Shown: positions 15,605 to 62,858, counted from the stretch's first letter. The stretch is 64,000 bases of DNA from a virus (IMGVR_UViG_3300035498_000404:1-64000); one strand, 5' to 3'. Notes: a model not told the origin generated them from the letters alone. Numbers and translations: made by a program.

Positions 15605-16072
15605 GTGATTCTTATAGAAGCCACAGTGCTGGTTGCTATTATTACTGGTTCGTTTTCTCTCATTACTTTTCTCTTAACTAGATATTTCACTACTTAGGAC
15701 AAAAAGACTGAAAAAAGTGAAGAAAAGACAGAAAAGTACAATGAACTTCAGAGAAAAGAAGAAGAAATTACAAAAGAAGTTGATGGTCTAAAAGAAGTCG
15801 TTGATAAGGTTTTAACTTGTAACGAAGAACAGACACAAATTCTGAATGTTCTTTCTAATGCTATGAGAGATACGCTTCGTAACAGTATAATAGTAATGTA
15901 TAACAAATATTATTTAGAATACAAATATCTTCCATTACATGAGAGAGAAAATCTTTCTCATATGGCAACGGAGTATTTCGCTTTAAATGGGAATGGGGTT
16001 GTACCGCCACTCATTGAAAAGATGTACGGATTACCAACAGAGCCTCCTGACGAAGAGGATAAATCAAAATAA
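15605..16072 (+). CDS. Holin-like membrane protein (TAG readthrough at 15695)
   Basis: N-terminal hydrophobic helix VLVAIITGSFSLITFLL, then *DKK, a coiled coil, and a C-terminal LRNSI..Y..Y...LP..ERENL...YFALNGNG motif common in Firmicutes phage lysis-region proteins. Confidence 0.6.
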
Positions 16073-16099
16073 TATTTAATTGGAGTAAAAGGGGTTTAT

Positions 16100-17056
16100 A
16101 TGAGTAAGAAGTTCAATGATTTTTTAATGGAGATAGGTGGCAAAGTAATGTCCACCTCAATGACATGGGAAGAAGCCGCCAAAGAATTGAATGAATTAAC
16201 AGGAAATGATTATGGCGAAAGCACGTACAGAAAGAGATATAAGTATCTTTGCGAGGGTATAGATTATATAAATTCTAAAGAAGACGAATCTTATATTAGA
16301 ATTTTGTCTATTTCTGATTTGCATATTCCTTTCCAGAGAGATGCAGAAGTTTTTTCTGATTTTATAGGTAAAGTTGACATTCTGCAATTAAATGGTGATA
16401 TTGTGGATTGTCAGGCTTTATCAAAATTTCCAAAAGTTTTCAGAATGAGTCCGATTGAGGAAATTATCGAAGCTCGTAGATATTGTATAGGCTTAATTAG
16501 AATGATTAAACCTAAAAAGGTTGTCGTAAATGTTGGCAACCACGATATTCGGTTTCAAAATTATATTGCTAAGAATATAGATTCTGACTTATTAGAATTA
16601 ATGCCGAGAACGTCATTACAATTAATTTTTGTGGACGGGTTCAAACGGTATAATAAATTTACTGGTGAATCCACTTCTTTTAAACCAATTCGTGAAGTTG
16701 TTGATGCAGAGATTGAGTTTGTAGATGATTGGTATAGCCAGATTGGCAAGACCATATTCTGTCATCCGTTGAGTTTTTCGTCTGGTATGATGGCTACTGC
16801 TGAAAAAGCCAGACGTTATTTTAAAGATTCTGGATATGAGTTTGATACACTTGTAATGGCGCATACTCATAGAATTGGTTACTATTTTGTGGGAGACACA
16901 AGAATATATGAGCAGGGCGCTGCTTGTGATACTTCTAAGATGAATTATATTGATGGAAAATTAACAACTCCACAAAAAGAAGGATTTATATATTTGTGTC
17001 AAGATTCTGAGGGTAATCTAATTAAGAGTACCGTTCAGCAGATTGAATTGAATTAA
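16100..17056 (+). CDS. Metallophosphoesterase (calcineurin-like)
   Basis: SDLH, NGDIVD, GNHD and AHTH motifs. Confidence 0.9.
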   Translation: MSKKFNDFLMEIGGKVMSTSMTWEEAAKELNELTGNDYGESTYRKRYKYLCEGIDYINSKEDESYIRILSISDLHIPFQRDAEVFSDFIGKVDILQLNGDIVDCQALSKFPKVFRMSPIEEIIEARRYCIGLIRMIKPKKVVVNVGNHDIRFQNYIAKNIDSDLLELMPRTSLQLIFVDGFKRYNKFTGESTSFKPIREVVDAEIEFVDDWYSQIGKTIFCHPLSFSSGMMATAEKARRYFKDSGYEFDTLVMAHTHRIGYYFVGDTRIYEQGAACDTSKMNYIDGKLTTPQKEGFIYLCQDSEGNLIKSTVQQIELN

Positions 17057-17069
17057 AGGGGACGGTGTA

Positions 17070-18119
17070 ATGCCGAGAGGAAGAAGACCTTCTACTACTA
17101 CAACAAAGAAAGTAGCAGAAAAGGCCGGAGCACCGAAAGTTGTATGTTTATGGTGCGGCTGTGATAATCAGTCAAACTTTTATCAATGCAAAGACAGACA
17201 TCGTAGGTACTTTGGTAAAATTCCTTATTGTAAGGAATGTATATAGAAAATATATGATGAAAAACTGGCGAGGTATAATGGAAACATTAACCTCGCCCTT
17301 TATTATACTCTAAGAAAAATTGATGTTCCATATATTCATGTCGCATATCTTGGAGCGCTTGATAATGTTAGAAATGAGAACGCTAAAATCAGAGGCGAAG
17401 AGAATATTTTAAAAGCATATATGAAAAATATGTCTTTTGCCGAAAATAATGGCTGGGGTTTCTCATTTGATGAAAGCCAAGGCGAAAATGAAATTGAGGG
17501 TTTGGCTTCATATGACGACGTTATAAAAGTCAAGAGACGAATTAGTGGAGCAAACACTTCCAATAATCAGGATTATGATTTGATAGAATTAGATGCGCAA
17601 GACCTCGTTCAAAAATGGGGGCAGTTTGACGATGATGATTTAGCTTGGCTAGAATCTGAGTATATGGACTGGGAAGAGCAGCTAAATGGTATTAGCGATA
17701 AGAGCGTTGATATTATGATTCGTCAGGTGTGTTTGCAGTTAAATGAAATTCGCAAGGATAGACAAGAAGGAATTCCTGTTGAAAAGAAGATTGCCACATT
17801 ACAGCAACTTATGAAAACAAGCGGATTGACTGAATTGCAAACAATTGATGATAAACCTCAAAATATTGGAATGAATATCCGAGATATTGAATTTAGAAGA
17901 CCAATTAAACAGGTTGACCCGGAATTGGCAGACGTTGACAACGTGCATATGATTCTGGATGCCTTTATTGGTGGAACGTCAAGAGCTATTGGTAAAGAAA
18001 ATGAATTTACCGAGAGATTTGATGAAGAGTATGGTAAATATACCATTGATATTATAGATGAATTAAAAGGGAAAGTGGCAATTCAAGAGCCAGAAATAAC
18101 TGGTGATTCCGATGGATAA
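17070..18119 (+). CDS. Zinc-finger protein preceding the terminase (probable small terminase subunit); TAG at 17244
   Basis: ATG 17070 is in frame with ORF 17421; CLWC...CKECI*K; position directly upstream of TerL. Confidence 0.7.
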
Positions 18120-21100
18120 GAAAAGCCACAAAGTTTATATTAGAAGAAGAAAAAAAGTAAATATGTCAAAGACAAAGCGGTTTATGGACAACCTTGAAGC
18201 GTGGACAGCTTATTGGAGAAGCAATCCCCATAGATTTGCAACTGATTATTTAGGATTTAGACTGTATGATTTCCAGAAAGTCCTTTTATATCAAATGTTC
18301 GCACATCCTAGTTTTGTATACGTGGCCTCGCGGGGTCTCGCCAAATCAACGCTTGCCTTGATATTTGCTACTATATATTGTATTTTATATCCGGGAACTA
18401 CAATTGTTATTGTTGCTCCCACTAGAGGACAGTCAACTAGATTTGTTAAGAATATTCAAAATCTAGCTCGTGGCCGTCCTAATATAATGTCTGAAATTAA
18501 ATCAGTTAAAACTGGTTTAAATGAAAGTCGAATAGACTTCTGGAATGATTCGGCTATTGTAACGCTTCCGTACAGTGAAAATGCTCTCGGTGAATAACAG
18601 TATTTATTACTAAAACGCCGCTATCAATGGTAACATTGGTATGATAATTGCAGTAAAAAACTGGAAACCTGAAATGGTAATCAGAGGTGAAGATAATTCT
18701 AAGAATTATCAGCCGCAACGCATAGATGGTGAAAAGATATAATCCATCCAAGAGACTGCAACTGCCAAATATTTGGTAGAAAAGATATGCTGAACTAATG
18801 AGAAAAAAATCATTAGAATTATAGGATAAAAAGCCTATAAGATAACAAATTGGTTAGAGCCAATATTCTTATAGTTGACGAATTCGTTCGTACCGAAAAG
18901 GAAGTTATAAGCCGTGTATTCGTTCCTATGCTTTCTTCTCCTAGAAGCCCAGATTATACTGATTTAACTTCTAAAGAAAGAGAGGCATTACCAGAAGAAC
19001 CAAATAGACAATTATATTTGTCCTCTATTAGAGGCGCAGATGAATGGTCTTATGCCAAGTTCTTACAATATATAGACGAAATGACCAATGGCAATACAGA
19101 ATATACAACTGTTGCTTTACCTTATAATATAGGTGTAAAAAACAGATATATTTCTCGTGCTATTGTTCAACAGTCTTTTAAAGAAAATCAAGATTCTCTT
19201 GAAATGCTATACGCAGAATATACGTGTAGACCAGAGAGAGGTTTAAACAATTCTTTCTACCGTTATGCTGTATTGCAGGAACGGAGAGAAGAAGCTCGTG
19301 CTATGGTGGCTATGAGCGATTTTGAATATTTACAATACAAAGGCGATAAATCTAAGTTTCCATTTTACCAAGAAAAATTGCCGAATGAAATTAGAATTTT
19401 AGCAATGGACGTTGCCTTGGTAGAATCCGCAAAGAACGATTGTAATGTTAGTAATAACATACACAGTCCGCTGCATTTAGAAATTATGCAGTGTATTTCT
19501 CTGAACTGCTGGAAACCCCTTATAGCTTGTATGCTACAACATACGAATGAAAAATGTCGAAGTGTGAATGCTTAAAAAATTACAGGATTGGGAAATCAGC
19601 AACTAAGCCCCGAATAGGGGAAAGCTCAACGACCAATAGTTGAAATACTTATAGGGCAAGTGCCCGAAGTGGAGAACACCTAAGTGTAATTTGTTTTAAG
19701 GTAAATTATATATGGTGAATGATATGGTCTATGCTTATATGAAAATATAAGAAAAATTATTCATGATACAAATAAAAGATAAGGACACTGGAGTAGCTGC
19801 CTTTTTAATGCCCCTAACATTAAATTACTTATCTTTTATTTTTTTATATATATTACACCGTTAGGGAGGTGAGAATATATGATAGTTGGATTTAAAATGG
19901 AAATCCATCCAAATGGATTTCAACAAGAAATATTAAGAGAATATTGCAAAACATATCATAATATGTGGAATTTTTTAGTTGCAAAATATAAAGATAACTT
20001 ACCAGTTGTAAGCAAATATGGAATAAAAGATTTCGATACGAACGATTTAATAAATGAATTTGGGAGTGCTATACCAAAAAGAATCGTTTTGGGTGTTATA
20101 AAAGAATATTCCAGAGCAGTACAAATGGCATATAATAAAGTCGTAAACAGACCTAAGTTTCATAAATACAATCCGAATAAACAATCATTCTACATTGCCA
20201 GCATGACTTATTCTGTAACAAATGGCCGTGCTGTAATCCCATCTTTAGGAAGAGGACGGGAGAATATGTCGTACAGAATTCCATTAGACATAGAATATCT
20301 AAATAAATATAATATCAAAGAAATTATAGAGCCAAGATTTACTTTTTATAAAGGTAAATGGTATATTTCTGGCAGTTATAAAAAATAGGATGTTCAAAAA
20401 TCTAATAAAGAATTTATAGGGCTTGATTGGGGTATAAAAAATTTTATGACTAGTTCTAATGGCGACTTAATAAATTATCCAAATAATGTAACTAGAGAAT
20501 ATTACCGAATAAGAAAAATACAATCACTTCTGGATAAGAAAAAAAGAAAATCTAACAACTACAACAAATTATATAAAAAACTCTGTAACGCATATATAAG
20601 ATTAGAAAACTTAAAAAATGATTTTATAGAAAAAGAAACCACATCTCTATGTAAAAATAATAGCATTGGAGTTGAAGATTTGGAAAACTTAATGCAGTCC
20701 AACAAAATTATAAGAAGACAGAATTTTATATGTCCAAGAAAAAGATTTGTAGACGCATTAATGTGGAAATGTGAAAAATTTGGAAGTTATTTTGTTGTTG
20801 TTAATCCGGCTTATACCTCTCAAAAATGTTGTATATGTGGCAAAATACATAAATTAACATTAAGAGATAGAATAATGATTTGTGATTGTGGTAATATTAT
20901 TGACCGTGATATTAATGCCGCTATTAATATTAAAAATGACGCAATTGCGTCAGTGGGTATTTGTTGTACCTATTAAAAGTCCATAACATGGATAATTCTT
21001 TATATATTTAACGAATGTATAAAGTAATAAAACAGAATACGGCGTTTTGGGTTTTGCGTTTAATTCCTAATGGAAATAAGTATAAAAAGATATTTGCTTA

Positions 21101-22028
21101 TGCAGAGAGTATGAATGGTATTAATTCATTACTACAAACCCTGAGAGCAAAGCAATTGTTTTATGAATTTGACTGCGACTATTTTGTAATAGACGGTGGT
21201 GGCGTAGAAACTGCGCTCCTATTTGGTGACAAATAGGTGATAAATGGGTGTAAAAAACTGGAATTCTGAGAGGAAAATCAGAGCGGAAGTTTGTATTTAA
21301 AAGTATAAACACGCACAACGCATACGAATTGAACCTCGTGAAGAGAATATAATATTCGCAAGAGACACCCACTTCTTTTAGAATAAGAAGAAAAGATATG
21401 CTGAACTTACAGGAATACAACTGTAAGAATTGTGGGATAAAAAGCCCACAAGATAACAAAAGTTGTCGGGAGATTTAAAAAATCTCCCGATTTCTATTGA
21501 GGACAAGGAATTGTAGATATTAGCACTGTTGAGACAGAAGACCCAGTTCGTGGGGAAATTTATCCGGCGTGGACTGTTGCTAATTCTGATGACCTTAAAA
21601 ATATTCATAGAACAATTTCTGAAAATGCTGTACCAATTATGGTGTCTGTTAAAACGGGCATTGCAGATAAAAGTAGAATGCTAGTGCATTCTCGTGATGA
21701 AATGGCAACTAATAATATTTCTTTGCTTGTAGATATGCAAGATGGAATAGATTACTTAAATCAGAACTTTGACTTCTATAAAGTTTCTGATTAGGATTTA
21801 AGAAACAGAGTTTTAGCTCCTTATGCTCAAACTTCTGCTTTTATGAACGAAGCTATTAACTTGAAACAAGTTAGCGTTCAGGGTAGAATTAGTGCAGAAG
21901 AAAAATCAGGCAGACGTAAAGACCGCGTTATGAGCTTGGTTTATGCGCTAGATTATGCCAAATAGCTTGAAGATGGATTAAGTGTCCAGCAGAATAATAG
22001 CTGGGAAGATTATATATTTTTCTCATAA
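18112..22028 (+). CDS. terL: Terminase large subunit, 4 exons: 18112-18591, 18853-19440, 21036-21205, 21500-22028; TAG at 21792 and 21963; about 588 aa
   Basis: Walker A ASRGLAKS; splicing restores ALG|VRANILIVDE, MDVAL..SAKND|NTAF and IDGGGV|GQGIVD; C-terminal RKDRVMSL. Confidence 0.92.
18592..18852 (+). mobile_element. Group I intron TerL-I1 (no ORF)
   Basis: P1 CGGU/GCCG; P7 GCAUA/UAUGC; ends in G; same family as RNAP-I1 and TerL-I3. Confidence 0.88.
19441..21035 (+). mobile_element. Group I intron TerL-I2 carrying tnpB (IStron-like, no transposase)
   Basis: P1 GAU-UGU/ACA-GUC; AACUGCUGGAAAC and AAUCAGCAAC core; P7 GACCA/UGGUC; ORF lies downstream of P7'; ends AACAG. Confidence 0.88.
19879..20976 (+). 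CDS. tnpB: TnpB RNA-guided endonuclease (365 aa via TAG 20386-20388)
   Basis: Readthrough joins the two ORFs in frame and supplies RuvC-I IGLDWGIK; RuvC-II IGVEDL; zinc finger TSQKCCICG..CDCG; RuvC-III DRDINAAINI. Confidence 0.9.
21206..21499 (+). mobile_element. Group I intron TerL-I3 (no ORF)
   Basis: P1 GCGU/GCGC; P7 GCAUA/UAUGC; ends in G. Confidence 0.88.
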
Positions 22029-28785: not shown

Positions 28786-30151
28786 TTCTTTTGTTAAGGT
28801 AAATAAGCCTGCAAGTGTTAAGTGGAAAGATGATTTTCAGGCTCTTGCTAATAAAGAGTTTGAAGATTCTCCTACTTATCAGACGGACATAGAAGAAGAA
28901 GTAGAATTCGGTACTTTAATATTTGAACCAATAGAAGCTAGACTTACCAGCTTAATTGACCCTCATAGTGGTCTAAGAATTGCTGGTGATTTTGCAAAAT
29001 TGATTTTTAAGGACGGAGATTATAAGCCTCCGCTTGGTACTAGATATAGATTTGATGATAATATATGGATAGTTTATTCCATAGCTAATCAAAGAGCAGT
29101 AACTTCTCATGTTTATATTAGAAGATGTAATAACACATTAAGTAGCCAAGATGAATATGGTAATATCCATAGAGAACCTTGTTATATAGATTACAATTTA
29201 AATGAAACTCAATTAAGTGAAAATGAATTACTGGACGTTCCTTCCGGACGTTTGAATGTTTATTGTCAACTTAATCAATGGACTAAAGATATAGATGTAG
29301 ACAATAGATATATATTTGGAGAAGACGTATATAGAGTTAGATATAGAAGCAAATACGATAGAAGAAACACATTTGACAATGATAGCTGTAAATTATTAAC
29401 ATTTTATGTAAATCAGGATAATAAAGCTACTGACGATAATTTTGAATTGCAAGTAGCTAATTTTAAAGATTATAAATACTCCATTGAATGTATTGATAGT
29501 GTTGATAATGTTGTTGGTACAACTATCCAGTTATATCCAACTGTACTAAAAGATGGAGAAGAAGTAACAGAAGAAGTCTTTTATCAAACTTCCAATAGTA
29601 ATATTGTTACTGTTAGTAAAACGGGTGAATGTACTTTTATTTCTGAGGGTGAAACGAGCATTACTATTCGTATGAAGAATTTTCCTGTATGCAAAAAAGT
29701 TATACAGATTGTAATTCCTCAAGAAGAAACTGGTGAAACTGAAGAAACAGAGATTACTGATACTACGAAGAAAGCAGCAAAGAAGAAGTCAACTACACAA
29801 GTTGTAACAAAGAATCCTGCTGTATATATTTATCCTAATGTTAATAAGATTAAGTTAAATAATTCTATTGAATACAAGATTATTGGGGATTATGATTTCA
29901 GCATCTCCGTTGAAACCACATTACCAAATAAATATTATAAATTTAATTATTTAGGAGATAACAGGTTTATTATTAAAAATATGAAACCGTCTAGCACTCC
30001 TATTTATGTCGTTTATTATTCAGGAAATGATAGACCAAGTATTATTGATAAATATATCAGTCATGAACTAGAGTTTACCGATAATTATTGCTCTGAGCAA
30101 GACGGAATAGTATTTGGCATATACAAGATTGAATTAGGAGGGATAGTATAA
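28772..30151 (+). CDS. Head closure protein with an Ig-like domain (probable)
   Basis: IRRCNNTL motif; TSNSNIVTVSKTG Ig-like segment; synteny. Confidence 0.6.
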   Translation: MAYYDSFVKVNKPASVKWKDDFQALANKEFEDSPTYQTDIEEEVEFGTLIFEPIEARLTSLIDPHSGLRIAGDFAKLIFKDGDYKPPLGTRYRFDDNIWIVYSIANQRAVTSHVYIRRCNNTLSSQDEYGNIHREPCYIDYNLNETQLSENELLDVPSGRLNVYCQLNQWTKDIDVDNRYIFGEDVYRVRYRSKYDRRNTFDNDSCKLLTFYVNQDNKATDDNFELQVANFKDYKYSIECIDSVDNVVGTTIQLYPTVLKDGEEVTEEVFYQTSNSNIVTVSKTGECTFISEGETSITIRMKNFPVCKKVIQIVIPQEETGETEETEITDTTKKAAKKKSTTQVVTKNPAVYIYPNVNKIKLNNSIEYKIIGDYDFSISVETTLPNKYYKFNYLGDNRFIIKNMKPSSTPIYVVYYSGNDRPSIIDKYISHELEFTDNYCSEQDGIVFGIYKIELGGIV

Positions 30152-30744
30152 TGGCTTATTACGAAGAATTATCTCCAATTTTAAACAGTATTATTGGAGA
30201 AAGATTTCTAAGAAATCAAGAGTTATGTAAACTATTATACTGTCATGCTCCAAATTGTGATTCTTAGAATTCTGAAAAATGTGAAGATTGTGAATTACTA
30301 AAAGACACAAGTAAATTATTTATGACATATATTTATCCAATGCCTAAAATGCCAGATACAAAAACCGACAAGGAATGCTATATTTGTGCATATTTTAATG
30401 GTGGCTATGAACCGGATAAAAATACTGGCGTGAGAAATGTCGTTCTTACAATAGACATTGTTTGTCATATAGATTTCTGGATGGTCGATGGTAATTATAG
30501 AGTGTATGAAATCATGCACCAAATAGATAAAATGTTGAATAATCAACTTACTGATTTGCCGATTTTAAACAAGCCTTATTTAAGAGGTTTTCAAGTTAGA
30601 ACATATGAACAGTATTTTTATGGTGTTCAAATGTTGTATAATTTACAAATTAATAGTAATATTGATTGTTCTCCAAATTCACTTAGCACAACGTTAAGGA
30701 AAGGCATGGTGTATGACCCTCAGTGGACAGATTGCAATTGCTGA
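30151..30744 (+). CDS. Tail completion/terminator-like protein (TAG at 30265)
   Basis: ATG 30151 with GGAGG RBS is in frame with ORF 30322; DIVCHIDFW...RVYEIMHQIDKML. Confidence 0.7.
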
Positions 30745-32424: not shown

Positions 32425-32444
32425 TCTTTGTCTTTTTAGTATAA

Positions 32445-32480
32445 GCCGGGGCATTAGCCCCGGCAAATTTATTATTGATT
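32445..32480 (+). terminator. Terminator after the tail tube gene
   Basis: GCCGGGG/CCCCGGC hairpin. Confidence 0.65.
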
Positions 32481-32483
32481 ATT

Positions 32484-49678: not shown

Positions 49679-50593
49679 TTGGAGAGTATGCCTGTAATGG
49701 GGTGTCCATTTATTTTTAATGAAATACCTTCCGAGGCATATAACGCCTCTTTAGTATTTTTGGAAGAACAATATACGAAACGTCCTTCTGGTGGACAAAA
49801 ACAATTTACTACGGATAATGTCAGAGGAAATTCAAGAGCAATTCTATTAGATGTTTCTCAAACAGAACCTTTGAGTTTCGGAATTGAAATTGTGTTTGAT
49901 GACCCAGTAGATATTCAAACTTTAACACAAGTTAAAAATTGGTTATGTTCTCCTTTAAAATATTGTAAACTTAGAATTTGTGCAGAGGGTTTTGAAAATT
50001 ATTATTATAATTGTTATATAAACCTAGATAATGATTTAATTTATAATGGTGGCTATCGTGGAGTTACTGGTACAGTAACTTGTGATGCACCTTGGGCTTG
50101 GGAAAACGAACAAACTATTGATTTAGAAATTGGGACATCGACTGTCCCTGCTGAAAATAGATTTTTAAATTACTCTCAGGACGCAAATCCGATGAAACCG
50201 ATTATTTCATTCACTGTGACAGAATCAAATTCAGATTCATTTTTGGCGATTGAAGATGTATTTGAAGATTCTAATGGGAATATTATATACGACAAGACTA
50301 CAATATTTGTTTCTTCTAATGCAAAAACATATAAGCAAAAGAATGGAGAAATTGTAGAATATAGTATAACAAATAATTGTTACAATCTTGTAAGTGGTGA
50401 ACAAATAACATTTAATAACCAAACGGCGTTACTGACTTCTTCTGTGAATCAACTTTTTAGAATTAATAATTTTAATAAAGTTTTTCTTAGAATCCCACAA
50501 GGAGTAAACAAACTTTATGTGTCTGGATTAAATATATCTAATTTAAAAATGACTTATACTAATGCTAAGAGATTAGGTGGTGGTTGGTATTAA
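49679..50593 (+). CDS. Distal tail protein (Dit-like)
   Basis: Follows TMP; VKNWL, TCDAPWAW and FLRIPQGVNKL motifs. Confidence 0.8.
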   Translation: MESMPVMGCPFIFNEIPSEAYNASLVFLEEQYTKRPSGGQKQFTTDNVRGNSRAILLDVSQTEPLSFGIEIVFDDPVDIQTLTQVKNWLCSPLKYCKLRICAEGFENYYYNCYINLDNDLIYNGGYRGVTGTVTCDAPWAWENEQTIDLEIGTSTVPAENRFLNYSQDANPMKPIISFTVTESNSDSFLAIEDVFEDSNGNIIYDKTTIFVSSNAKTYKQKNGEIVEYSITNNCYNLVSGEQITFNNQTALLTSSVNQLFRINNFNKVFLRIPQGVNKLYVSGLNISNLKMTYTNAKRLGGGWY

Positions 50594-53500
50594 ACAGAAC
50601 TTTGATTTCAATGGTTTATATGAAAATCCTTTATTGGAGCTTTGCAATCCAGATAAGAGACAAATTGGTATCTTAGCTAATGTGAAAAACTTAAAATTAA
50701 GTTTAAGATATAATAATATATCCGAAATGTCGTTTACTATTTATGCTAAAATAAACGATGTAGATTATCCGTATTATGATTTAGTAAGAAAGATGCGACT
50801 AATTCATGTTGAAAATATGGGATATTTTGTTATTTCAGAAATAAATGAACATTTTGAATATGACGTCCCTTATAAGGAAGTTTCTTGTTATTCGGCAGAA
50901 TACTTGTTAAATTATAAACCGATAAATATTTGTACTACAACACTAACATCTAGTTCTAACGCTGTATATAATAAAAGTTTTAAATTCTATGATAAAACCT
51001 ATCCTGATGATACATTAATGTATCAATTGTTTAATGGATTTTTTGATTGGAAATTTGACGCAACAGATTTGGATGAAGACTTAATGGGGCAATACCGTTC
51101 TTTTAGTGATACTGGTGATGGCCTATATGGATTTTTACAAAATTATGTTGCTTCCGCATATGAATGTGTATTTATTTATGATATTGAAACATTTACTGTA
51201 AAAGCATATAAAACTTCTGAAATTGTGAATTAGACAGATATTCTTTTTACTTTTGATAATTTAATTAAAAGTGTTGACATGAAAGAATTGTCTGATGATA
51301 TTTGTACAGTATTATCTGTTTCTGGTTCTGACCAATTGCCATTGTCTTTGATTAATCCTACTGGAACAAGTAATATTTACAATTTTAATTATTACTTACA
51401 AGACAAATACGATTCTTGGATTGGTAAAGATGTATATGCGATAGATGATAAAGGCAATACAAGACTTGATTCTAATGGAAATAAGATACTTTTAAAAGAT
51501 TATGTATGTGATTGGCAGGAAAAAATAAAGACATTAATTTACAGCTCTAATGAAGAAGGCTCTTATGCGCAATTACTTTCGGACAGAGCATATTTTAATT
51601 CTCAATATAACTTATTGTATGCAAAGTATGTTGAAGCTACTACAATTTCTAATTATCTAACAGAAGCAATTTCAACATTTAAAGAAGAAGAAAAAACTGC
51701 TAAAAAAACTGGATGGGGTATGCTTCTTTTAGGTGTTGCTTTAATTGCTGGTGCTGTTGGAATTTTTGTTGCAACTGGTGGTAGTGGCGCTGAGGCTTCT
51801 GCTGCAATGGTTGAAAAAGGTACAGAAGTTTTGATTAGCTGGGGAGCTGCCGAAGGAACTGCTGCTACAATTGCATCATATATTCCTCTTGCCATAAGTA
51901 CAACTGTTAACGGACTTACTACTTCTGGTTTTATTAGTATAGGAAGCGCGCTTACTACTTATTTTCCGCAAGTACAATCTATTAAGATTACTAAAGATGA
52001 ATGCCAAACTCTTCTTAATATAGCAAATGATAACGCTGCATTATTGTTTGGTAATGACAATAATGGATATGTTAAAAATCTTGATTCTACGACCGCCGCA
52101 AATGCTGTTGGCGGTTTATCAACTATCTCTATTGTAAATGAAAACAGTTTATATATTTGCGGAGATTCTTCTGGCATAGTGAACCTATCCCAAAGAAAAC
52201 CAGATTTAAATTCTGAAACAAGTATCGCAAAATATTATTCCATGAGCGTACTAGCTCAAAAAATAGCTCAGATAGACGCAAAAATTGAGGAATATGTTAC
52301 AACTTATGGTTACAATTATTATTTTTCTGAATCTGAAAGAAGAATTCTTGAACCATTTTTAATTCAAAGCGAATATACGGACGAGGCATTTACTGCTACG
52401 AGTGATGTTACAATTGATGATGATACTGATTTAACTCAATACATTACAACAACTCAAGGAGTAATGACTATCCAAGAATTTTTGTATAGAGAACAAGGAT
52501 ATTATTTTGATTTTTATACTGAATCAAGTACATCAACTTGGAATGCTAATCCTGTTAAATTTATTCAAGAGAATTTTAGAAATTCTGTTGGAGCAGATAG
52601 TAATAGTGAAGGAACTTATATTTTAACTTATAATGGTAAAAGTTGGGATATGACTGGTTCTTTGAAAAGTTCTGGTATGAAAATTGGTAATTCAGTTGGT
52701 ATACTAGATAATTCTTCTGCCGCCAATTATAGTTTTGTTTCTGGCGATTATATTGCTATAAGACTATATAATCCAGATATAGAGATGGTTAATACGACTA
52801 CTATCGCAATGCAGCTTGCACAACAAGCATATAGCGTTATAGATACGGTTAGTCAGCCAGCATTTTCTTTTAGTATGAATACATCTAATTTTGTATTTCA
52901 AAAAGAATTTACTCCTTGGCTAGACCAAATTGGATTTGGTAGTAAAAAAGCCAGAAATGAATATCTTGGTTTTGGTACTGTTGTTAATGTCGAATTGGAA
53001 AACGGAGAAGTATTACAACCCTTCTTACAGGAAATTGATATTGATTACGAAGATTCGACTTCTATTGAAATGACATTTGGTAATAAATTTAATTTAGGCA
53101 CTTCCGAATGGACACTTGGAGATTTGATAAGTGAAAATACTTCTACTATAAACAGAGTAACTCGTGCGCTTATTGGCACTTCTTCTTCTGGAATGTCAAC
53201 TTCTGTTTCTTCTATTTCAAGCGATACAACAAGTACGCTTCAAGCATTAAATGGTGCTACCACACAAATTGTTGCCACACAAGCCGAAATTAATTCGCAG
53301 ATTGAAAATAATGCGGAAACATTCGCTAAAGGTATGGCAAATGGTATGGCATTGTATAGCACAACAAAAGAAGAAGGAACATATTTTCATGATAATGAGA
53401 ATCTTGAAGATAGTAACACCGTATATTTATTTAATGATTTCGGACTTTCTTTTACAAAAAATTATAATCATGGAAATACAGAATGGGACACTGGCATTTC

Positions 53501-54113
53501 GGCAGACGGAAGTATGATATTACATTCTCTTACTGTAAATCAGATTACTGCCGACCAAATAAGTGCTGGGGCTATTGAAGCTGATAAAATAGCAGCCAAT
53601 GCAATTACTGCCGGAAAAATTTCTACAAATGCTATATATGCGGACAATCTGAGAAAAGATGCAGTGTTTAAATTATATTGGTCTAATTCCAGTGTACGTG
53701 ATTGGAGCACAACTAAAATAACAAATTCAGGTATAGACCTCAATAATTTTGATGGGTGCATTGTATTTTGTTCAGATTATTACGATGGAAAATATATCGG
53801 TTCTAGTTCTGCAATTGGAGTTAAAGACAAAACAACTGCTGCATTCGGAAAAGATTCAAATGGGTGGTATGGTGGTGGCACTATTACACAAAGAGGATTC
53901 ACAATGCGTTCTGATGGAATTTATATGGATAATGGATATTATTTTTCTCATTATGTTCATACTGTTCATTCTTTGAATTGGCACGTAACACAGGCGTTTG
54001 GTATATTTGATGTAATAGGTGATATATTAGACACCGCTGCGCATCCTACATGGCAGAAGTCATCTACTGCTTGTGTTCCACAAGCAGTTTACGTATTTAG
54101 GATGGGGGTTTAA
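50577..54113 (+). CDS. Large tail/baseplate hub protein (Tal-like), about 1178 aa via TAG 51231
   Basis: ORFs 50577 and 51279 join in frame; INPTGTSNIYNFNYY; ITADQISAGAIEADKI repeats. Confidence 0.8.
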
Positions 54114-54290: not shown

Positions 54291-54316
54291 TTTTTAAGAT
54301 TGGAGTGTGCTTAATA

Positions 54317-56101
54317 ATGAATTTAGATAGTGTTCCAATTAAATATGTGTTAGATTCAAATAACACACTTCATTAGATTGATTACGAAACATTAGCAAAT
54401 TTACCTAATGGGTTAAAAAATCCATATGAATTAATAATTTTTGGTACTTCTTATGATGGTTCTAAAGAAATATCAATTGAAAAACAAATTGCTTCTAATG
54501 ACTTAGTGGGATTTGTAAAGCCAGTGAATGTTTCTTCTGAAATGACAACTCCCGTTGGCATAAATGAACAAGGAAGGCTATTTACGACAAGTCAAAAAGT
54601 TGATTCATTTTTGTCTAAAGATAGCACAAACTCGGTTTAGAATTCTGTGATTACTTAGAATATTTTTAAACTAGAAGATGAATTAGATAATAAAATAAGT
54701 GAAGAGAGCTTTAATAAAGTTGTTTCTGAAACGAACAACAAAATATAGAATTTACAAAATGATTATTTAAATAAGATTAGTTCCGTATCTTAGAATTTAG
54801 AAAATTATAAATCAGAGACAAATGAAACAATTGATTTAATACAATAGGATTCCAAAACAAAACCAATATCATTAGTTTTTGAAGATTATAATTCATTGTC
54901 TAATTGGTTGTCTATTCAGGACAATTTGTCGAAAATTGAATCTGGCGCTACTTTTTATTTGATACAGGGGGATACAGATTACTTTTGGGACGGAAATACA
55001 ATAAGAACCATTAAAGGCTCTGGCAATAGTAATTCAAATGGTTTATAGGACTATTTATCTCAAGTTAATCCAACAGGAATTGGTAGTTTTCAAATGAACT
55101 CTTCTGGCGCTATTGGAAAATATTCTGTTTCTCTTGGATATAATTCGGTAGCTTCTGGAACTTGTTCAACTGCAATCGGTTTAGGAGTAATATCTTCTTA
55201 GAATAACCAATTTGTATGTGGAAAGTATAATATTGAAGATACTGATAACAAATATTTATTTATAGTTGGTAATGGAGCTTCTGATAATAATAAGAGCAAT
55301 GCCTTTTCTGTTACTTCTGATGGAAATATAAGTTCGTACTAGGATGTTATAGCATTTTATTCTGATAAATATTATGCGAATGATACATATTGTAATTTTA
55401 CATATAATATTTCTTCATTTAATGGAACGTTAAATATGTCGTGGGATGGATTTGCTCTTGCGGTTTCCGGTGTTTCTGGTGATTATAAATTTGAATATAC
55501 TGGTGAGCATTGGTATTGTTCTTAGGTTGACTTATCATATATTGCAGATGAAACAACACAAGAAATAGGATGGTTTCCAATAAGTATAATTGGCATTTCT
55601 TTTGTTGATGAAAATGAAGAAGAGATAAACGAAGATACCATATCTTTTTCAAAAGGAGACTATATATTTGTTCATTTTCTTGCTCTCGAAGCTATAAGCT
55701 TGCGAGAATTGTATAATTATACTCATTTTGGATTAAGTTCTTCTACTGAAAATATTACAAAACTAGAAGAAAATGTCTCTACTTTACAAGAAAATTCAGA
55801 AAAATATATTTCAGAAATATCTTAGGCTATAAACGATTCTGAAAAAATTAAATATAGTATTAAAAATATAAATGATATAGAATTATCAAATATCACATTA
55901 AATTCTGTTACCAGTGAAAAAGCTGGTCTAATGTCCTCTACTGATAAAAACAATTTAGAACAATTAATAAAAGATATTGAATCCATAAAAAAAGAAATTG
56001 AATCAATCAAAGAAAGATTAGATAAGCTTGAAAATCCAGATTCAGATAAAGATACTGATTCCGGTGAAGAATCTACTGATAAATCAAATACTAATAAATA
56101 A
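54317..56101 (+). CDS. Tail fibre/adhesin-like protein, 594 aa with 11 in-frame TAGs (absent from the ORF track)
   Basis: No TAA or TGA in frame for 1.78 kb; YadA-head-like SVSLGYNSVASG..STAIG, GKYN..LFIVGNG..SNAF and AGLMSSTDK motifs. Confidence 0.82.
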
Positions 56102-56511: not shown

Positions 56512-56898
56512 TTGCAGAAAGAAGCAACTTTAATTGCCGCACAACAAATCCCTAAAATGCACATTATATAGGGTGATAGCCTTATGTTTGCTATACAATT
56601 CATTGATGCAAACTAGACTATAATAATTCCCAGTGCGTCAGATGAAGTTCAATGGTTTTTATATCCATTTAGAGTTGATTCTGACCCAATATTAATGTAT
56701 TCTAATAAGAATAATTCTGGATATAAAAACAATATATTTGTTGCTGATAATGGAGTAATATATATTAGTATAGATTCTGAAGATACAAAGCTATTAGATT
56801 CAGAAAAGTATATTCAAATCCCAGTTTTGAAATATAATAAAACTACATATACAAAAGCATATGGCGAAATAAATGTTATAAAAGGAGTTGGTAATTAA
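56512..56898 (+). CDS. BppU-like baseplate protein (2 TAGs), paralog of 58320-58667
   Basis: QIPKMHII*GDSL versus QIPDIEFISGDTI; both end in Q.PVL.Y...AYG.INV. Confidence 0.7.
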
Positions 56899-57416
56899 TG
56901 ATTAATAAAGACTTTGCGAATACAATAAATTATATCATATTTGGTTAGCAATCAGCCAGCTCTATTTATAACTATTATTATATTGGAATATGTTCTGAAA
57001 AAATAGAAAATGGAATTATTAATTCTGAAATATTTCCACAAGACGGGAAAAGAATAAGAATACCAAATAGTGCGGATTATTTTCATGTTGAATATGATAA
57101 TTCTTTAGGATGTAGCGTCGTAAAAAATGTTAATGCTATTACTTTTAATTTGAATAAATCTACTGATACCAAAATAAACTCAATATTTGTTGCAACTTCA
57201 CAAGACACCAAAGATGCTATTTTGTGGAAAAATCTATCACAAACTAAAACTGTATCAAGTGGAAATAAATTTGTTATATTAGCAAATGCACTTGAATTTA
57301 TTTTAGGAGGCCAAGCTTCTTCTGGCACTTCTGGTGGAGAATTAATTGTTGATGATAATGGATATTTAAGAAGCAGTTCATTTTCGGTAACAGACAGTGG
57401 AGAACTTGTATTGTGA
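56898..57416 (+). CDS. Hypothetical tail protein (1 TAG), paralog of 57665-58099
   Basis: ATG 56898 is in frame with ORF 57150; MI...A...N...FG...YY(I/L)G pattern shared. Confidence 0.7.
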
Positions 57417-57664: not shown

Positions 57665-58099
57665 ATGATTAGTTCTTCTCTTGCTAAACAAGTAAATCAA
57701 TTGTTATTTGGTGGTAACTCACTAAGCGTTCCGGGGTATTGGTATCTTGGTCTAAGCACCTTTGAAATAGACTCTGACGGAAGAGTAATAGAACCAGACC
57801 ATGTTTCTACTGGTTATTCGCGTGTAAGAATTGCAAATACTACTGATAATTTTGAAACAGGTGTTTATTCTAATCCGACTACGAATAAGATTGTTTATTC
57901 TTAGAATAAAAATAAAATAGCGATTTCCAGTATTACAAAAGGTAGTGCGGTTACAGTTAAAGCTGTATTTATATGTTCTACTCAAACTGGGACTAATGCA
58001 GACTTTTGGATTAATTTAACAAATCCTGTTACAATTCAAGTTGGTAGTACAATGTATATAAATGCTGGCTCATTAAGATTTACTTTAGGTTCTTTGTAA
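57665..58099 (+). CDS. Hypothetical tail protein (TAG 57902)
   Basis: WYLGLST...GYSRVRI..., continues past TAG to AGSLRFTL. Confidence 0.72.
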
Positions 58100-58111: not shown

Positions 58112-58306
58112 ATGAGAGATTTTGAATATACACCTAAATTTACAGAGACTAATATAGGAATTCTCGGTAGAGTTTATCGTGACGGATATTTGTATTAGAA
58201 TACAAAAGATGAACCATTTACAATAAATATCTCTACTTTATATTTAAATTCTTATGTAACTGGCGAACTTGGTATTTGTTTTGGTATGGAAGTTAGTTTT
58301 TCATAA
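58112..58306 (+). CDS. Hypothetical protein (1 TAG)
   Basis: GAGGTG RBS; fills the gap between neighbours exactly. Confidence 0.55.
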
Positions 58307-58897: not shown

Positions 58898-59347
58898 TTT
58901 AAGAAAGATAAAAACTAAGATAGATTGAAAATAATTTAAATAGTTAAACAATTAATAAATCTATTTTGGCAAAAGCATTCTATTTTTATATAAAAACAAT
59001 TGCGCTCTTATTTTTAGAATTACTAAATAATAAGAGATAATGGACTCTATGAAAGCGAAACCCTATGCCCCAGCAAAAATATCAACAGCGAACCTATACC
59101 ACTAAATTAGCGACATATCCCAAGTTTTAAATGGGTATTGTTTTGTCTAGGTATAACAGCTATTATTTTAAATTTTGATACAATGGAGAGCAAATATCCT
59201 TTCAAATAAACCATATGCCAAAAATTAAGTTAATAACCGAATATTAATTTACTAACAAAACAAATTATAAAGGAATAAGATTTTATGAATACAATTAACC
59301 TATTTAAAATGATTAAAGATATAAATAATTTAGTGGGAGGTTGCTAA

Positions 59348-60523
59348 ATGAAAACTACCAATCCAATGAATTATAATAATATCGGATTAGGATGGAATAA
59401 TGGTGGGGGGGGGGGTAAAACCCTTTCGGATTGTTCCGTTGGCAGCACAGTTAAGTTAAAAATAAATGGCGTTAATACAGCATTTATTGTCATTCAACAA
59501 GGAAATCCAGATTCGGATGTATACGATGATACTTGTAATGGAACTTGGCTTTTAATGAATAACTGCATGGAAATTCGTGCTCTTGCTTCTGATGGGGAAG
59601 ATACTGGATATTATCCTAGTGAAATTGATACCTATTTGAAAGAATATTATAAAAAATATTTCCCTTCTGATATTCAAAATTTCATATTGCCAGCTAGAGT
59701 TCCTTATACCACATACCAAGATGATAAAACTTCTGTTGTTTCTAAATCGGCAATGTCTTCCGATTATTATACTGGTTTATTTTTACTTAGCGGAGAAGAA
59801 GTTGGGTTTGAGTCTACTGACGATGATTATACTGCCGAAGGAGAACAACTTCCAGACGAAGGTAGTTGTCTAAGATATTTCGCAAGTGGCAATAGAAGTA
59901 ATCGTAAGGCAACTTATGGCGGAGAAAATACATAGTGGTGGCTTCGTTCCAAGACTGTATCTAAAACATATCTTTTTATTGATGCTGATGGACTAAGAAA
60001 TGACGAATACTCCGAAAAAGAAAAAGGTATCAGGCCAGCGATTATTTTAAATTCGGCATTAAATGTTGATAGTAATGGAAATATAAAAGTACCAGATATT
60101 AAAGAGTGGCAAAAAAATATTTTGTTGTCTGCGCATCCAATTGGAAGTTATTATTGGAGTAATAACAGTACAAATCCTATGACTCTTTTTGGTGGAATAT
60201 GGGAACAAATAATTGACAAATTTGTTTATGCGGCGGGGAATAAAGCTGTTGGTGAAACAGGCGGCGAAGAGGAACACACACTTACTGTGAGCGAGATGCC
60301 GAGTCATTATCATAGTAGGGTTTACAATACGAATGGAACTCAATATATACTTACTGGAAATAGTACCGGTAGTGCAAGTAATGGAGCGATGGTGAAAAAT
60401 AACACCGATAATACTTCCTCTTCATATAGAGGATATGTACAGACCAATAGTTCTGGCGGCAGCCAGCCCCATAATAATATGCCTCCATATATTGTTGCTT
60501 ACTGTTGGTGTAGAGTTGCTTAA
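59348..60523 (+). CDS. DUF6273-like domain fused to a tail-collar/baseplate domain (TAG 59933)
   Basis: LFLLSGEEVG...T*WWLRS...GIRPAII, then HPIGSYY...GGEEEHTLTVSEMPSH...GGSQPHNNMPPY, all in one frame. Confidence 0.8.
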
Positions 60524-60647
60524 AAGACTTTATAATGTGAATTTTTAAAGACAGATAGATAATAAATATTGAAAAATAAATAGGGATAAACATCCCTTAT
60601 TAAATATAATTTTTATAAAATAAACTATAAAGGGGTGTTTTAAAAAA

Positions 60648-62858
60648 TTGGCTGGAAAATATATCTTTGAAATTCAAGAAAGAACAATTGTTCCTGCTAT
60701 AACAGATTAGGTTGCTGTTTATGACGATAACCTATCTCGTTATATTACATTTAAAATACCAGAAGTTATAGACGGAATTGATATAATTGATAAATTAATT
60801 ATCATCCGTTATGTTAATGCTCTCGGTCAATTTGGTCAATTCTATTCGCAAGGTAGAGAGACTATTACTGAGGACGATGAAACATACGTATTATTCGATT
60901 GGGTTATTGAATCAAAAGTTACTGCCGCAAGTGGTTATGTAACATATGACGTATCTGTTTATGATTCTAACTTTGATGGAATTAATACGGCAAGTGATAT
61001 GTATATCTTGCATACACTTCCGACAAACTTAAAAGTTGAAAAAGGACTTCTGGAAGTTAGTCTTGAAGATGAAGACTACAATATGCTTTCTGAGCTTATT
61101 GACCAATTTAATGAGATAATTACACAACATTATCTTGAAGTCAAAAAATCAGAAGAAAACTCTAAGGCTTCCGAAGAGGCCGCTGCTTTAAGTGAATCTA
61201 ATGCAAAAGCAAGTGAAAATGCTGCTGCTGAAAGCGAATCTAATGCGGCGAGTAGCGAGAGTGCTGCCTCAAAGAGTGCAACTGATTCTGCCAATAGTGC
61301 AACAGCAAGTGCTAATAGCGCTACTGATTCTAAGAATAGTGCTAGTGCTGCCTTGAGTAGTCAAAATGCAGCTAAGACCTCTGAAACAAACGCAAAGAAT
61401 AGCGAAACTAATGCTAAAACTTCGGAAACCAATTCAAAGACTTCTGAAACAAACGCAAAAAACTCAGAAACTAACGCTAAGTCTAGTGAAACTAAGGCGG
61501 CAACTTCTGAAAGTAATGCGAAAACTTCTGAAAGTAATGCGAAAACTTCTGAAAGTAATGCGAAAACTTCTGAAAGTAATGCTGCCGATTCCGCAAGTAA
61601 TGCTGCTGATTCTGCAAGCGCTGCTGCTACAAGCGCAGGGAACGCAAAGACCTCTGAAACTAATGCTAAAAATTCAGAAACAAACGCCAAGACCAGTGAA
61701 ACAAATGCAGGAAGTAGCGCTTCCGCTGCTTCTACAAGTGCAGGAAATGCTTCTAGTAGTGCCAATGCGGCTTCTAAGAGTGCTTCCGCTGCTTCTACTA
61801 GCGAATCTAATGCGTCAACTTATGCTTCTAACGCTTCTACTTCCGCATCAAATGCTTCGACGTTTGCAAATACTGCTTCGGCAAAGGCTACCGATGCCTC
61901 CAATTCTGCTTCTGCTGCCTCTACAAGTGCTGGCGAAGCAGCTTCTAGTGCGTCCGCTGCAAAAACCAGCGAAGATAATGCCAAAACAAGCGAAGATAAT
62001 GCAAAGAAGTCAGAAGAAAATGCAGCTACATCAGAATCAAATGCTTCTGATAGTGAAACCAATGCCGCGACAAGTGCTACAACTGCGTCGAATAAAGCAA
62101 GTGACGCTGCTGCTTCTGCAACTAATGCTAAAAATTCTGAAACCAATGCTGCCACAAGTAAGAATGACGCGGCAACATATGCGTCAAATGCTTCTACAAG
62201 CGCAAGTGAAGCACAACAAAGTAATACAAACGCAGAAACAAGTGCAAATAGAGCTGCCGATAAAGCAAGTGAAGCCGCCAATAGTGCAACTGCTGCCGCA
62301 AAATCTGCTGCTGATGCTTTAGAATACTTGAATCAAGTTAAAACTGTGAGTAGCGGAGCGCAAGGTTATTATGAAACACCGGAAAAACTAAAAGAAAGCG
62401 TTCCAGATGGCACTACTGGCTATTGGGCTATTGTAGGCTCTACCGATACAATTTGGGTTTGGGACGATGAAACCTCCGACTGGAAAGATAGTCATGATAT
62501 GACTAAATTTACAGAATATTATACTATCACTCAAATTGACAGTAAATTAAAACAGGTACAGACAGATATTGATACAGCTAAGACAGAAACAAAATCGGTT
62601 TCTTATACAATTACTGTTCCTGCTAGTGGATGGACTGGAAGCTCCGCCCCGTATAGCAACACAGTCATTGTTGATGGTATTACCGCCGACACAGTTCTAA
62701 GTGATATTAGTCTTGCAAGTTCTAGTATCGGCGTGGCCTCTGCTGAAGCTGCCGCTCAAACTTGGTCGTATCTTGATACAAGTGCCGGAAGGGTCACTTT
62801 TTATAGTAGCACTATCCCCACTGCTGACTTTACAATAGTAGCAAGGGAGGTTAAGTAA
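60648..62858 (+). CDS. Tail fibre protein with Ala/Ser-rich (lambda Stf-like) repeats (1 TAG)
   Basis: TTG 60648 is in frame with ORF 60999; BppU-like N terminus; (A/S)KTSETNA heptads; TVPASGWTGSSAPY C-terminal domain. Confidence 0.85.
61378..61581 (+). repeat. 21-bp tandem coding repeats in the tail fibre gene
   Basis: aacttctgaaagtaatgcgaa three times near 61502-61580, plus degenerate copies. Confidence 0.8.

What the first reader, a model, noticed from the sequence alone, without database searches (positions are those of the whole stretch)
15605..62858. Genome-wide TAG reassignment, most likely to glutamine (code 15)
Seen: about 40 in-frame TAGs in about 20 genes join ORF fragments in frame and restore motifs: TnpB RuvC-I, RecU GKRFE*NF, T*WWLRS, the terL C terminus, 8 in TMP and 11 in a 594-aa gene missing from the ORF track. 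Every credible gene I checked ends in TAA or TGA. Internal evidence for Gln: VDSFLSKDSTNSV*NSVI (TAG 54638) aligns with VDASLSSSSTNAIQNKAV in gene 63552, and the TAG at 120 sits at the S-x-Q site of an HTH. Known: TAG-to-Gln recoding occurs in gut phages (Lak, some crAss-like and Firmicutes phages), often biased to late genes.
Basis: partly seen in the sequence, partly recalled or inferred. Interest (0 to 1): 0.85.

Follow-up and report, generated by a model that had tools for sequence, protein, structure and literature searches.

The report
Phage late genes read TAG as glutamine
A 103-kb gut phage writes its head, tail and packaging genes with the stop codon TAG used as a glutamine codon; this dialect is already known in gut phages, but this near-complete genome carries no recognisable means of reading TAG.

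Summary
The window is the first 64 kb of a 102,894-bp phage record related to Enterocloster phage PMBT24. Forty in-frame TAGs lie in about 19 genes of the + strand structural block (15.6-62.9 kb). They are flanked by homology on both sides and recur in four independent assemblies of near-identical strains. Sequence downstream of the first TAG is under strong purifying selection (pN/pS 0.08), so these are neither stops nor errors.

Glutamine is well supported. Q is the best fit at TAG columns against every comparator. Between 97-99%-identical strains, 11 of 13 TAG differences are swaps with CAA or CAG.

"Genome-wide" is only partly right. TAG is a sense codon only in the structural block. The early blocks and the lysis cassette have none, and at most one credible gene may stop at TAG.

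TAG is followed by a purine more often than CAA/CAG is, which fits suppression in competition with RF1.

This is a new member of a known kind (code-15 phages; Borges 2021, Babkin 2023). The scan has noted TAG-recoded elements without a reader on other DNA before.

The parts
15605..16072 (+). ORF of 155 aa with in-frame TAG at 15695
   Evidence: homology on both sides of the TAG. The column is K in the relatives.
17070..18119 (+). Conserved 349-aa gene upstream of terL, TAG at 17244
   Evidence: the column is Q in G001, G002, L007 and L008. It is N, K, R, K, K in G004, G005, G003, MT835481 and PMBT24.
19879..20976 (+). TnpB (OrfB_IS605 plus Cas12f1-like TNB domain), TAG at 20386 just upstream of RuvC-I
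   Evidence: Under code 11 the second fragment would start after the GLDWG aspartate.
21579..22028 (+). C-terminal exon of terL, TAGs at 21792 and 21963. Codon 21762 is CAG here and TAG in strains L004, L005 and L009.
   Evidence: match to PMBT24 TerL residues 482-626.
30151..30744 (+). Structural-module gene of 197 aa, TAG at 30265
30723..31565 (+). Structural-module gene of 280 aa, TAG at 30936
   Evidence: the column is Q in all nine comparators that align.
32475..32792 (+). ORF of 105 aa, TAGs at 32541 and 32613. Codon 32613 is CAG in strain G006.
36705..37211 (+). RecU-like resolvase, TAGs at 36729, 36990 and 37062
   Evidence: the RecU match at residues 19-153 spans two of the TAGs..
38946..39545 (+). 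ORF of 199 aa, TAG at 39093
39565..41409 (+). Tape-measure gene, first exon, TAGs at 39946, 40063, 40168, 40306, 40516 and 41173
   Evidence: TAG and CAA are swapped in both directions against strain G006.
44896..48036 (+). Tape-measure gene, last exon (PhageMin_Tail), TAGs at 45811 and 46336
50577..54113 (+). Tail or baseplate protein (YOMG_N domain), TAG at 51231 joins ORFs 50577-51233 and 51279-54113. The codon is CAA in G006.
54305..56101 (+). Fibre-like protein of 598 aa (YadA-head repeat) with 11 TAGs: 54374, 54638, 54656, 54746, 54791, 54845, 55046, 55199, 55340, 55523, 55823
   Evidence: The G006 version of this gene has 7 TAGs of its own.
56512..56898 (+). ORF of 128 aa, TAGs at 56569 and 56614
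   Evidence: the column at 56569 is Q in all four comparators.
56898..57416 (+). Gp80-like fibre protein, TAG at 56946 (CAG in G006)
57665..58099 (+). Gp80-like fibre protein, TAG at 57902 inside the Pfam match
   Evidence: Gp80 match at residues 2-140; the TAG is residue 80.
58112..58306 (+). ORF of 64 aa, TAG at 58196, conserved in G006
59348..60523 (+). DUF6273 plus Gp10_C baseplate protein, TAG at 59933 inside DUF6273
   Evidence: DUF6273 match at residues 64-235; the TAG is residue 196.
60648..62858 (+). Tail-fibre protein of 736 aa, TAG at 60708
14142..15151 (+). tRNA cluster: Met(CAU), Gln(UUG) and Pro(UGG) with unusual T-loops, then Asp, Thr, Leu(UAG) and Ser(UGA). None has a CUA anticodon.

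Best explanation
The window belongs to a roughly 103-kb tailed phage of the human or animal gut, related to Enterocloster phage PMBT24. It uses TAG as a glutamine codon (genetic code 15) in its packaging, head and tail gene block at 15.6-62.9 kb. About 7% of glutamine codons in that block are TAG.

The early and replication genes and the lysis cassette avoid TAG almost completely, both as sense codon and as stop. They can therefore be read under either code. The structural proteins can be made in full only once UAG is decoded in the infected cell.

Shown here: the TAGs are real, are translated, and are exchanged with CAA and CAG as if synonymous. Inferred: decoding is by a suppressor-type Gln-tRNA competing with host RF1. 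It may be a host or helper tRNA, or a near-cognate Gln-tRNA acting after RF1 is weakened.
For: 1. The TAGs are real.
- 40 in-frame TAGs, all but two (55823, 58196) inside alignments to relatives that have sense codons there.
- The same TAGs occur in four other assemblies.

2. The TAGs are translated.
- Downstream of the first TAG, strains differ by 179 synonymous against 53 non-synonymous changes, pN/pS 0.08, in 14 genes.
- Frames stay open for 195-959 codons after a TAG, against a median of 10 or fewer after TAA or TGA.
- Pfam domains span TAGs: RecU, Gp80, DUF6273.

3. Coding density.
- It rises by 8.4 points with TAG as sense. Non-recoded relatives G003, G005, MT835481 and PMBT24 gain 1.2 points or less.

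4. The residue is glutamine.
- I built empirical substitution profiles from the same alignments. Q is the best fit at TAG columns against G001, G004 and MT835481 separately. In the pooled data the log-likelihood gap to the next residue, E, is 22.
- The reciprocal test, on the relatives' own 104 TAGs, gives Q in all 1000 bootstraps.
- Window against strain G006: TAG<->CAA 6 times, TAG<->CAG 4 times, other codons twice. One more CAG<->TAG occurs at 21762 in L004, L005 and L009.

5. The recoding is confined to one block.
- 40 TAGs in 14,284 codons of the structural block, and none with flanking homology in 14,439 codons of the other blocks.
- The endolysins and holin at 68774-70688 have no TAG.

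6. Context.
- A purine follows the TAG in 33 of 40 cases here, and in 17/18, 38/46 and 35/42 cases in G001, G002 and G004. After CAA or CAG the figure is 65-68%.

7. Literature.
- Code-15 phages with a late-gene bias are described, and only about 40% of them have a detectable suppressor tRNA (bioRxiv 10.1101/2021.08.26.457843).
- A phage group that includes PMBT24 has TAG-recoded members without a CTA tRNA (PMC10607447).
Against: No reader of UAG was found.
- There is no CUA tRNA by ARAGORN (standard, intron, permissive and mitochondrial modes), by Rfam at gathering and at E-value thresholds, or by my own cloverleaf scan.
- There is no RF-1 domain and no class Ic synthetase in a record that CheckV rates 97% complete.

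Q occupies only 23% of TAG columns in G001, against about 40% at true Q columns. The TAGs therefore sit at poorly conserved sites, and E, K, N and S are common there.

There is no peptide evidence. The host is unknown.
Confidence: 0.88

Rival explanations
1. UAG is still mainly a stop. The structural genes are made by leaky, context-dependent readthrough using ordinary near-cognate Gln-tRNA (host CUG, or the phage's own UUG), perhaps after the phage weakens RF1. No dedicated suppressor tRNA is involved.
For: No CUA tRNA, release factor or synthetase is present. The phage and its recoded relatives all carry tRNA-Gln(UUG), and the four non-recoded relatives examined carry none. A purine is favoured after TAG. 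From my own knowledge, Gln is among the main residues inserted at UAG when RF1 is missing in E. coli.
Against: One gene has 11 TAGs and the tape measure has 8, so decoding at each codon must be efficient. At 50% per codon, 11 TAGs would give 0.05% full-length product. There is no strong shared downstream motif beyond the purine at +4. The link with tRNA-Gln is confounded by phylogeny and by the large tRNA sets of G001 and G002.
Confidence: 0.12
2. TAG encodes another residue, such as Glu, Lys, Asn or pyrrolysine, rather than Gln.
For: E, K, N and S are frequent at TAG columns. E wins 3-23% of bootstraps against single comparators.
Against: Q is best against every comparator and in both directions. 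Eleven of 13 TAG differences between strains are with CAA or CAG, six of them two-base changes, although Gln codons make up about 3.7% of the block.
Confidence: 0.04
3. The TAGs are true stops in a decaying genome, or they are assembly errors.
For: Under code 11 the genes are fragmented.
Against: pN/pS downstream of the first TAG is 0.08. The TAGs are identical in four other assemblies. In the TAG-as-sense ORF list the block's conserved genes are each a single open frame, or one frame per exon where terL and the tape measure are split by introns, so no in-frame TAA or TGA breaks them although TAA is the commonest stop. Essential genes (terL, tape measure) carry different TAG positions in different strains.
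Confidence: 0.01

Closest known systems
Code-15 (TAG to Gln) gut phages: crAss-like, Lak, Garnet, Amethyst and others (Borges et al., bioRxiv 10.1101/2021.08.26.457843; metaproteomic validation in PMC9523058)
   Same: In-frame TAG in structural genes. Early genes are compatible with the standard code. Glutamine is the inferred residue. Many members lack a detectable suppressor tRNA.
   Different: The lysis cassette here has no TAG, whereas that work stresses recoded lysis genes. No suppressor tRNA, RF2 or aaRS is present in a near-complete genome. This phage belongs to none of the lineages named there, as far as I could test.
phAss-1 / 'Phassvirus' group of gut phages, which includes Enterocloster phage PMBT24 as a distant member (Babkin et al. 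2023, PMC10607447)
   Same: Firmicutes-type siphophages of 90-147 kb and 29-44% G+C. Some members have TAG recoded in virion genes. Two recoded members (ctxMM9, ctUes22) have no tRNA-Sup-CTA. PMBT24 is also the cultured relative of this window (portal 31% identical).
   Different: phAss-1 itself has three CTA suppressor tRNAs and 36 tRNAs. I could not compare the window directly with the BK-numbered genomes, which are not in the searchable collections.
Enterocloster phage PMBT24 (OQ326496; PMC11035940)
   Same: Collinear genome plan: YonO-like RNA polymerase, terL, portal, capsid, tail, tape measure, baseplate, lysin, and a minus-strand replication block.
   Different: PMBT24 uses the standard code. 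It has no in-frame TAG in the aligned genes, and TAG is the stop of 18 of 90 long ORFs. ARAGORN found no tRNA genes in it.

Membership tests
Genetic code 15 (TAG to Gln) recoded phage | In-frame TAGs inside conserved genes, spanned by homology | tested here: met
   40 TAGs, all but two (55823, 58196) inside alignments to relatives. Pfam domains span TAGs.
Genetic code 15 (TAG to Gln) recoded phage | Coding density and gene length rise with TAG as sense, more than in standard-code relatives | tested here: met
   Density goes from 0.760 to 0.844. Controls change by -0.002 to +0.012. My own greedy ORF tiling was used, not Prodigal.
Genetic code 15 (TAG to Gln) recoded phage | TAG columns correspond to glutamine | tested here: met
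   Likelihood tests in both directions. TAG<->CAA or CAG accounts for 11 of 13 strain differences.
Genetic code 15 (TAG to Gln) recoded phage | Regions downstream of TAG are translated (under purifying selection) | tested here: met
   pN/pS 0.08.
Genetic code 15 (TAG to Gln) recoded phage | Phage-encoded suppressor tRNA(CUA). Frequent but not universal: about 40% of such phages. | tested here: not met
   None found by ARAGORN, Rfam or a custom scan.
Genetic code 15 (TAG to Gln) recoded phage | Phage-encoded RF2 or aminoacyl-tRNA synthetase. Occasional, not defining. | tested here: not met
   No match to PF00472 or PF00749.
Genetic code 15 (TAG to Gln) recoded phage | Recoding biased to late (structural and lysis) genes | tested here: inconclusive
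   The structural block is recoded and the early blocks are not. The endolysins and holin are free of TAG.
Genetic code 15 (TAG to Gln) recoded phage | Peptides with Gln at TAG positions | not testable with these tools
   No proteomic data are available.

The most novel reading that the evidence does not exclude
This phage subclade (G000, G001, G002, G004, G006) reads UAG efficiently as glutamine without any dedicated CUA suppressor tRNA. One possibility is that it disables or outcompetes host RF1 and lets Gln-tRNA read UAG, perhaps its own tRNA-Gln(UUG) with an unusual T-loop. Another is that it depends on a reader supplied by the host or by a co-infecting phage. Either would be a route to a code change not yet shown for phages.
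Probability: 0.25. Interest if true: 0.7.

Novelty: new member of a known kind. Interest (0 to 1): 0.38.

Why it matters
Annotating this genome under code 11 breaks about 19 structural genes, so the record and its relatives need table 15 for the late block.

The case is also a clean example for the open question of how the many TAG-recoded phages without a detectable suppressor tRNA read UAG. The genome is near-complete, has a cultured standard-code relative (PMBT24 on Enterocloster bolteae), and has non-recoded sister lineages that bracket the origin of the recoding.

Swaps of TAG with CAA and CAG between strains give sequence-only evidence for the residue. This method can be reused elsewhere.

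Tried and rejected
- A tRNA-like gene at genome 90494-90606 (-), outside the window, scores 50 bits on the Rfam tRNA model. About 50 nt replace the 11 central model positions of its anticodon arm (the inner stem pairs and the loop). I tested it as a hidden or 'two-headed' suppressor. CUA cannot be placed at positions 34-36 after U33. A Ro60-like DUF2828 protein lies 3 kb away. A non-decoding, Y-RNA-like tRNA mimic is therefore more likely.
- At a lowered ARAGORN threshold with introns allowed, one 'tRNA-Pyl(cta)' with a 449-nt intron appears at 65188-65726. With 68 calls at that threshold, one CUA call is expected by chance. It overlaps ORFs, and Rfam finds no intron there. I rejected it.
- PDB sequence search with TnpB: the alignment starts after the TAG. 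RecU-like protein: no PDB hit.
- TnpB homologues in bacterial MAGs: the TAG column falls in a variable linker (D, N, I, G, P, T) and is uninformative.
- A search for prophage relatives of the portal in 185,579 species genomes found none, so no host could be named.
- One metatranscriptomic run held 15% of the sampled words. A 423-nt contig covers TAG 57902 unchanged. The library may contain DNA and the cover is tiny, so this is not evidence for expression or against RNA editing.
- The minus-strand ORFs with TAGs (31591-32466, 10769-11044, 28548-28742, 41556-41849 and others) are antisense or intron shadows. I left them out.
- The first tally has a one-codon offset for minus-strand genes. I used only the + strand rows.
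Full report
**What the window is**

The window is bases 1-64,000 of a single 102,894-bp virus record. CheckV rates the record 97% complete. A 126-bp inverted repeat lies at its ends, and two related IMG/VR records are classed as having inverted terminal repeats.

The portal gene (22038-23639, phrog_2739) finds these relatives:
- 50% identity: an unannotated human faecal phage scaffold, MT835481.
- 31% identity: the cultured Enterocloster bolteae phages PMBT24 and CB457P1 to CB473P3.
- 58-72% identity: IMG/VR contigs of 93-150 kb.
- 100% identity (about 98.6% at the DNA level): three short contigs from other samples.

PMBT24 is collinear with this genome and is annotated under the standard code.

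**Check of the observation**

I listed ORFs with TAG as sense and kept the TAGs that lie on the gene strand. This gives 40 in-frame TAGs in 18-19 genes between 15,605 and 62,858.

All but two of them (55823 and 58196) lie inside tblastn alignments to relatives that have sense codons at that column. After a TAG the gene frame stays open for 195-959 further codons. The median after TAA is 10 codons and after TGA 6.5.

Pfam domains run across TAGs in the RecU-like protein, a Gp80-like fibre protein and DUF6273. In TnpB the TAG at 20386 lies about 12 residues before the RuvC-I motif GLDWG. Code 11 would leave that motif untranslated.

ORF density (ORFs of 100 aa or more, greedy tiling) rises from 0.760 to 0.844 with TAG as sense:

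| Group | Genomes | Gain with TAG as sense |
|---|---|---|
| This genome | G000 | 8.4 points |
| Not recoded | G003, G005, MT835481, PMBT24 | 1.2 points or less |
| Recoded relatives | G001, G002, G004, G006 | 5 to 19 points |

**The TAGs are neither errors nor decay**

The same TAGs stand in L004, L005 and L009 (three samples, 98.6% identical) and in the 72-kb contig G006 (97% identical).

I counted single-base codon differences between strains downstream of the first TAG of each gene. Against G006 there are 179 synonymous and 53 non-synonymous changes, giving pN/pS 0.08 in 14 genes. Against the other three assemblies the ratio is 0.02. These stretches are therefore translated.

**Which amino acid**

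I built empirical substitution profiles from the same alignments and asked which residue best explains what relatives carry at the window's TAG columns.
- Q is best against G001, G004 and MT835481 taken separately.
- In the pooled data the log-likelihood gap to E, the next residue, is 22, and Q wins 865 of 1000 bootstraps.
- The reciprocal test uses the 104 in-frame TAGs of G001, G002 and G004 and the window's residues at those columns. It gives Q in all 1000 bootstraps.

The strongest evidence comes from near-identical strains. In + strand genes, window against G006, the TAG-bearing columns divide as follows:

| Pattern | Count |
|---|---|
| TAG in both | 19 |
| TAG <-> CAA | 6 |
| TAG <-> CAG | 4 |
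| TAG <-> GAG | 1 |
| TAG <-> AAT | 1 |

L004, L005 and L009 add one more CAG<->TAG at 21762. Gln codons make up about 3.7% of the block, so 11 of 13 is far beyond chance. Six of the swaps need two base changes, as expected for drift among three synonymous codons.

A caveat: Q fills only 23% of TAG columns in G001, against about 40% at true Q columns. The TAGs therefore sit at weakly conserved sites.

**Extent of the recoding**

| Region | Codons | In-frame TAGs with flanking homology |
|---|---|---|
| Block 15.6-62.9 kb (+) | 14,284 | 40 |
| Blocks 1-7.1 kb (-), 62.9-70.7 kb (+), 70.7-102.9 kb (-) | 14,439 | 0 |

The 62.9-70.7 kb block holds a tail protein, a reverse transcriptase, two endolysins and a holin. 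The lysis cassette is therefore not recoded.

TAG is almost unused as a stop. Only 89234-89839 (-) is a credible gene whose first stop is TAG, with TGA 7 codons later. In PMBT24, 18 of 90 long ORFs end in TAG.

So 'genome-wide' overstates the case. The early genes are neutral with respect to the code, and the structural block needs UAG decoding.

Among the relatives, G001, G002, G004 and G006 carry in-frame TAGs of their own. G003, G005, MT835481 and PMBT24 carry none. The recoding therefore arose within this lineage.

**How TAG is read**

ARAGORN finds six tRNAs in the genome, and none has a CUA anticodon. Permissive modes add Met(CAU), Gln(UUG) and Pro(UGG) at 14142-14478. These have unusual T-loops and encoded CCA ends.

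Rfam at both thresholds adds no amber suppressor. My own scan for a cloverleaf around a U-CUA-R loop finds nothing credible. There is no RF-1 domain and no GlnRS-type synthetase. The recoded relatives, which carry up to 27 tRNAs, also lack a CUA tRNA.

A tRNA-like gene at genome 90494-90606 (-) has about 50 nt in place of the centre of its anticodon arm. CUA cannot be placed as its anticodon. A Ro60-like DUF2828 protein lies nearby.

The base after an in-frame TAG is a purine more often than after CAA or CAG:

| Genome | Purine after in-frame TAG |
|---|---|
| Window (G000) | 33 of 40 |
| G001 | 17 of 18 |
| G002 | 38 of 46 |
| G004 | 35 of 42 |
| After CAA or CAG, all four | 65-68% |

From my own knowledge of classical work on amber suppression, a 3' purine favours suppression over termination. 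This fits decoding in competition with RF1.

**Comparison with what is known**

TAG-to-Gln recoding with a late-gene bias is established for gut phages. Only about 40% of such genomes show a suppressor tRNA (bioRxiv 10.1101/2021.08.26.457843). Peptide evidence exists for crAss-like phages (PMC9523058).

Babkin et al. (PMC10607447) describe a monophyletic group of 90-147 kb gut phages that includes PMBT24. Several members are TAG-recoded, and two of them have no CTA tRNA.

The window is therefore a new member of a known kind. Its particular points are:
- a near-complete genome with no recognisable reader of TAG;
- a lysis cassette free of TAG;
- turnover of TAG with CAA and CAG at strain level.

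The scan has also noted TAG-recoded elements without a reader on other DNA.

**Other causes of gene fragmentation in the region**

- Rfam finds group I introns in the YonO-like RNA polymerase gene and four in the tape-measure gene.
- terL is split by a 261-nt insertion (18593-18852) that is absent from 98.6%-identical strains, and by the stretch that carries TnpB.

Noticed in passing
window 9319-9561, 9602-9875, 10224-10487: Group I introns by Rfam (44.7 bits, below threshold; 58.5; 68.4 bits) inside the YonO-like single-subunit RNA polymerase gene (PF05183 match in 7696-9375).
   Followed up: partly
window 41361-41739, 41897-42230, 42354-42767, 44485-44812: Four related group I introns (80-95% identical to one another) split the tape-measure gene. 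The third is followed by a DUF7487 / zinc-finger ORF at 42768-44096, probably a homing endonuclease.
   Followed up: partly
window 18593-18852 and 21208-21499: A 261-nt and a 292-nt stretch are present here and absent from 98.6%-identical strains L004, L005 and L009. Two of those strains (L005, L009) carry a 260-nt insertion at 18338/18343 instead. These are mobile insertions in and next to terL. terL is read as 18103-18592 / 18853-19575 / about 21579-22028, with TnpB in the second gap.
   Followed up: partly
genome 66664-66790, 66930-67056, 67173-68273 (L050 2664-4273): A diversity-generating retroelement. There is a 127-bp repeat pair in which 21 of 25 mismatches fall on adenines of the downstream copy. 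The variable copy forms the C-terminus of a tail protein (65669-66802), and a reverse transcriptase gene follows.
   Followed up: partly
genome 90494-90606 (-) (L051 6494-6606) and 93481-94938 (-): A tRNA-like RNA with intact acceptor, D and T arms and CCA, but about 50 nt in place of the centre of the anticodon arm. It lies 3 kb from a DUF2828 (Ro60-like) protein gene. It may be a Y-RNA-like tRNA mimic.
   Followed up: partly
window 14142-14216, 14305-14378, 14405-14478: Three tRNAs, Met(CAU), Gln(UUG) and Pro(UGG), with non-consensus T-loops (GGGGCAGYACC type) and encoded CCA ends. Standard ARAGORN misses them, and two of them fall below the Rfam threshold.
   Followed up: partly
window 75-200 and genome 102769-102894: A 126-bp inverted repeat at the two ends of the record (97.6% identical). 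Relatives G001 and G003 are classed as having inverted terminal repeats.
   Followed up: no
window 37212-38240: A tyrosine-recombinase (integrase-like, phrog_1) gene without TAG lies in the middle of the structural block, next to the TAG-bearing RecU-like gene.
   Followed up: no
genome 90314-90400 (-) and 90672-90886: tRNA-Arg(UCU) is 87 nt long with a long variable arm. The stretch that holds tRNA-Ser(GCU) is absent from strain G006.
   Followed up: no
L061 and L062 (Gastranaerophilales MAG contigs): The closest bacterial-MAG TnpB homologues carry 3 and 1 in-frame stops inside the match. These contigs may themselves be recoded phage DNA.
   Followed up: no
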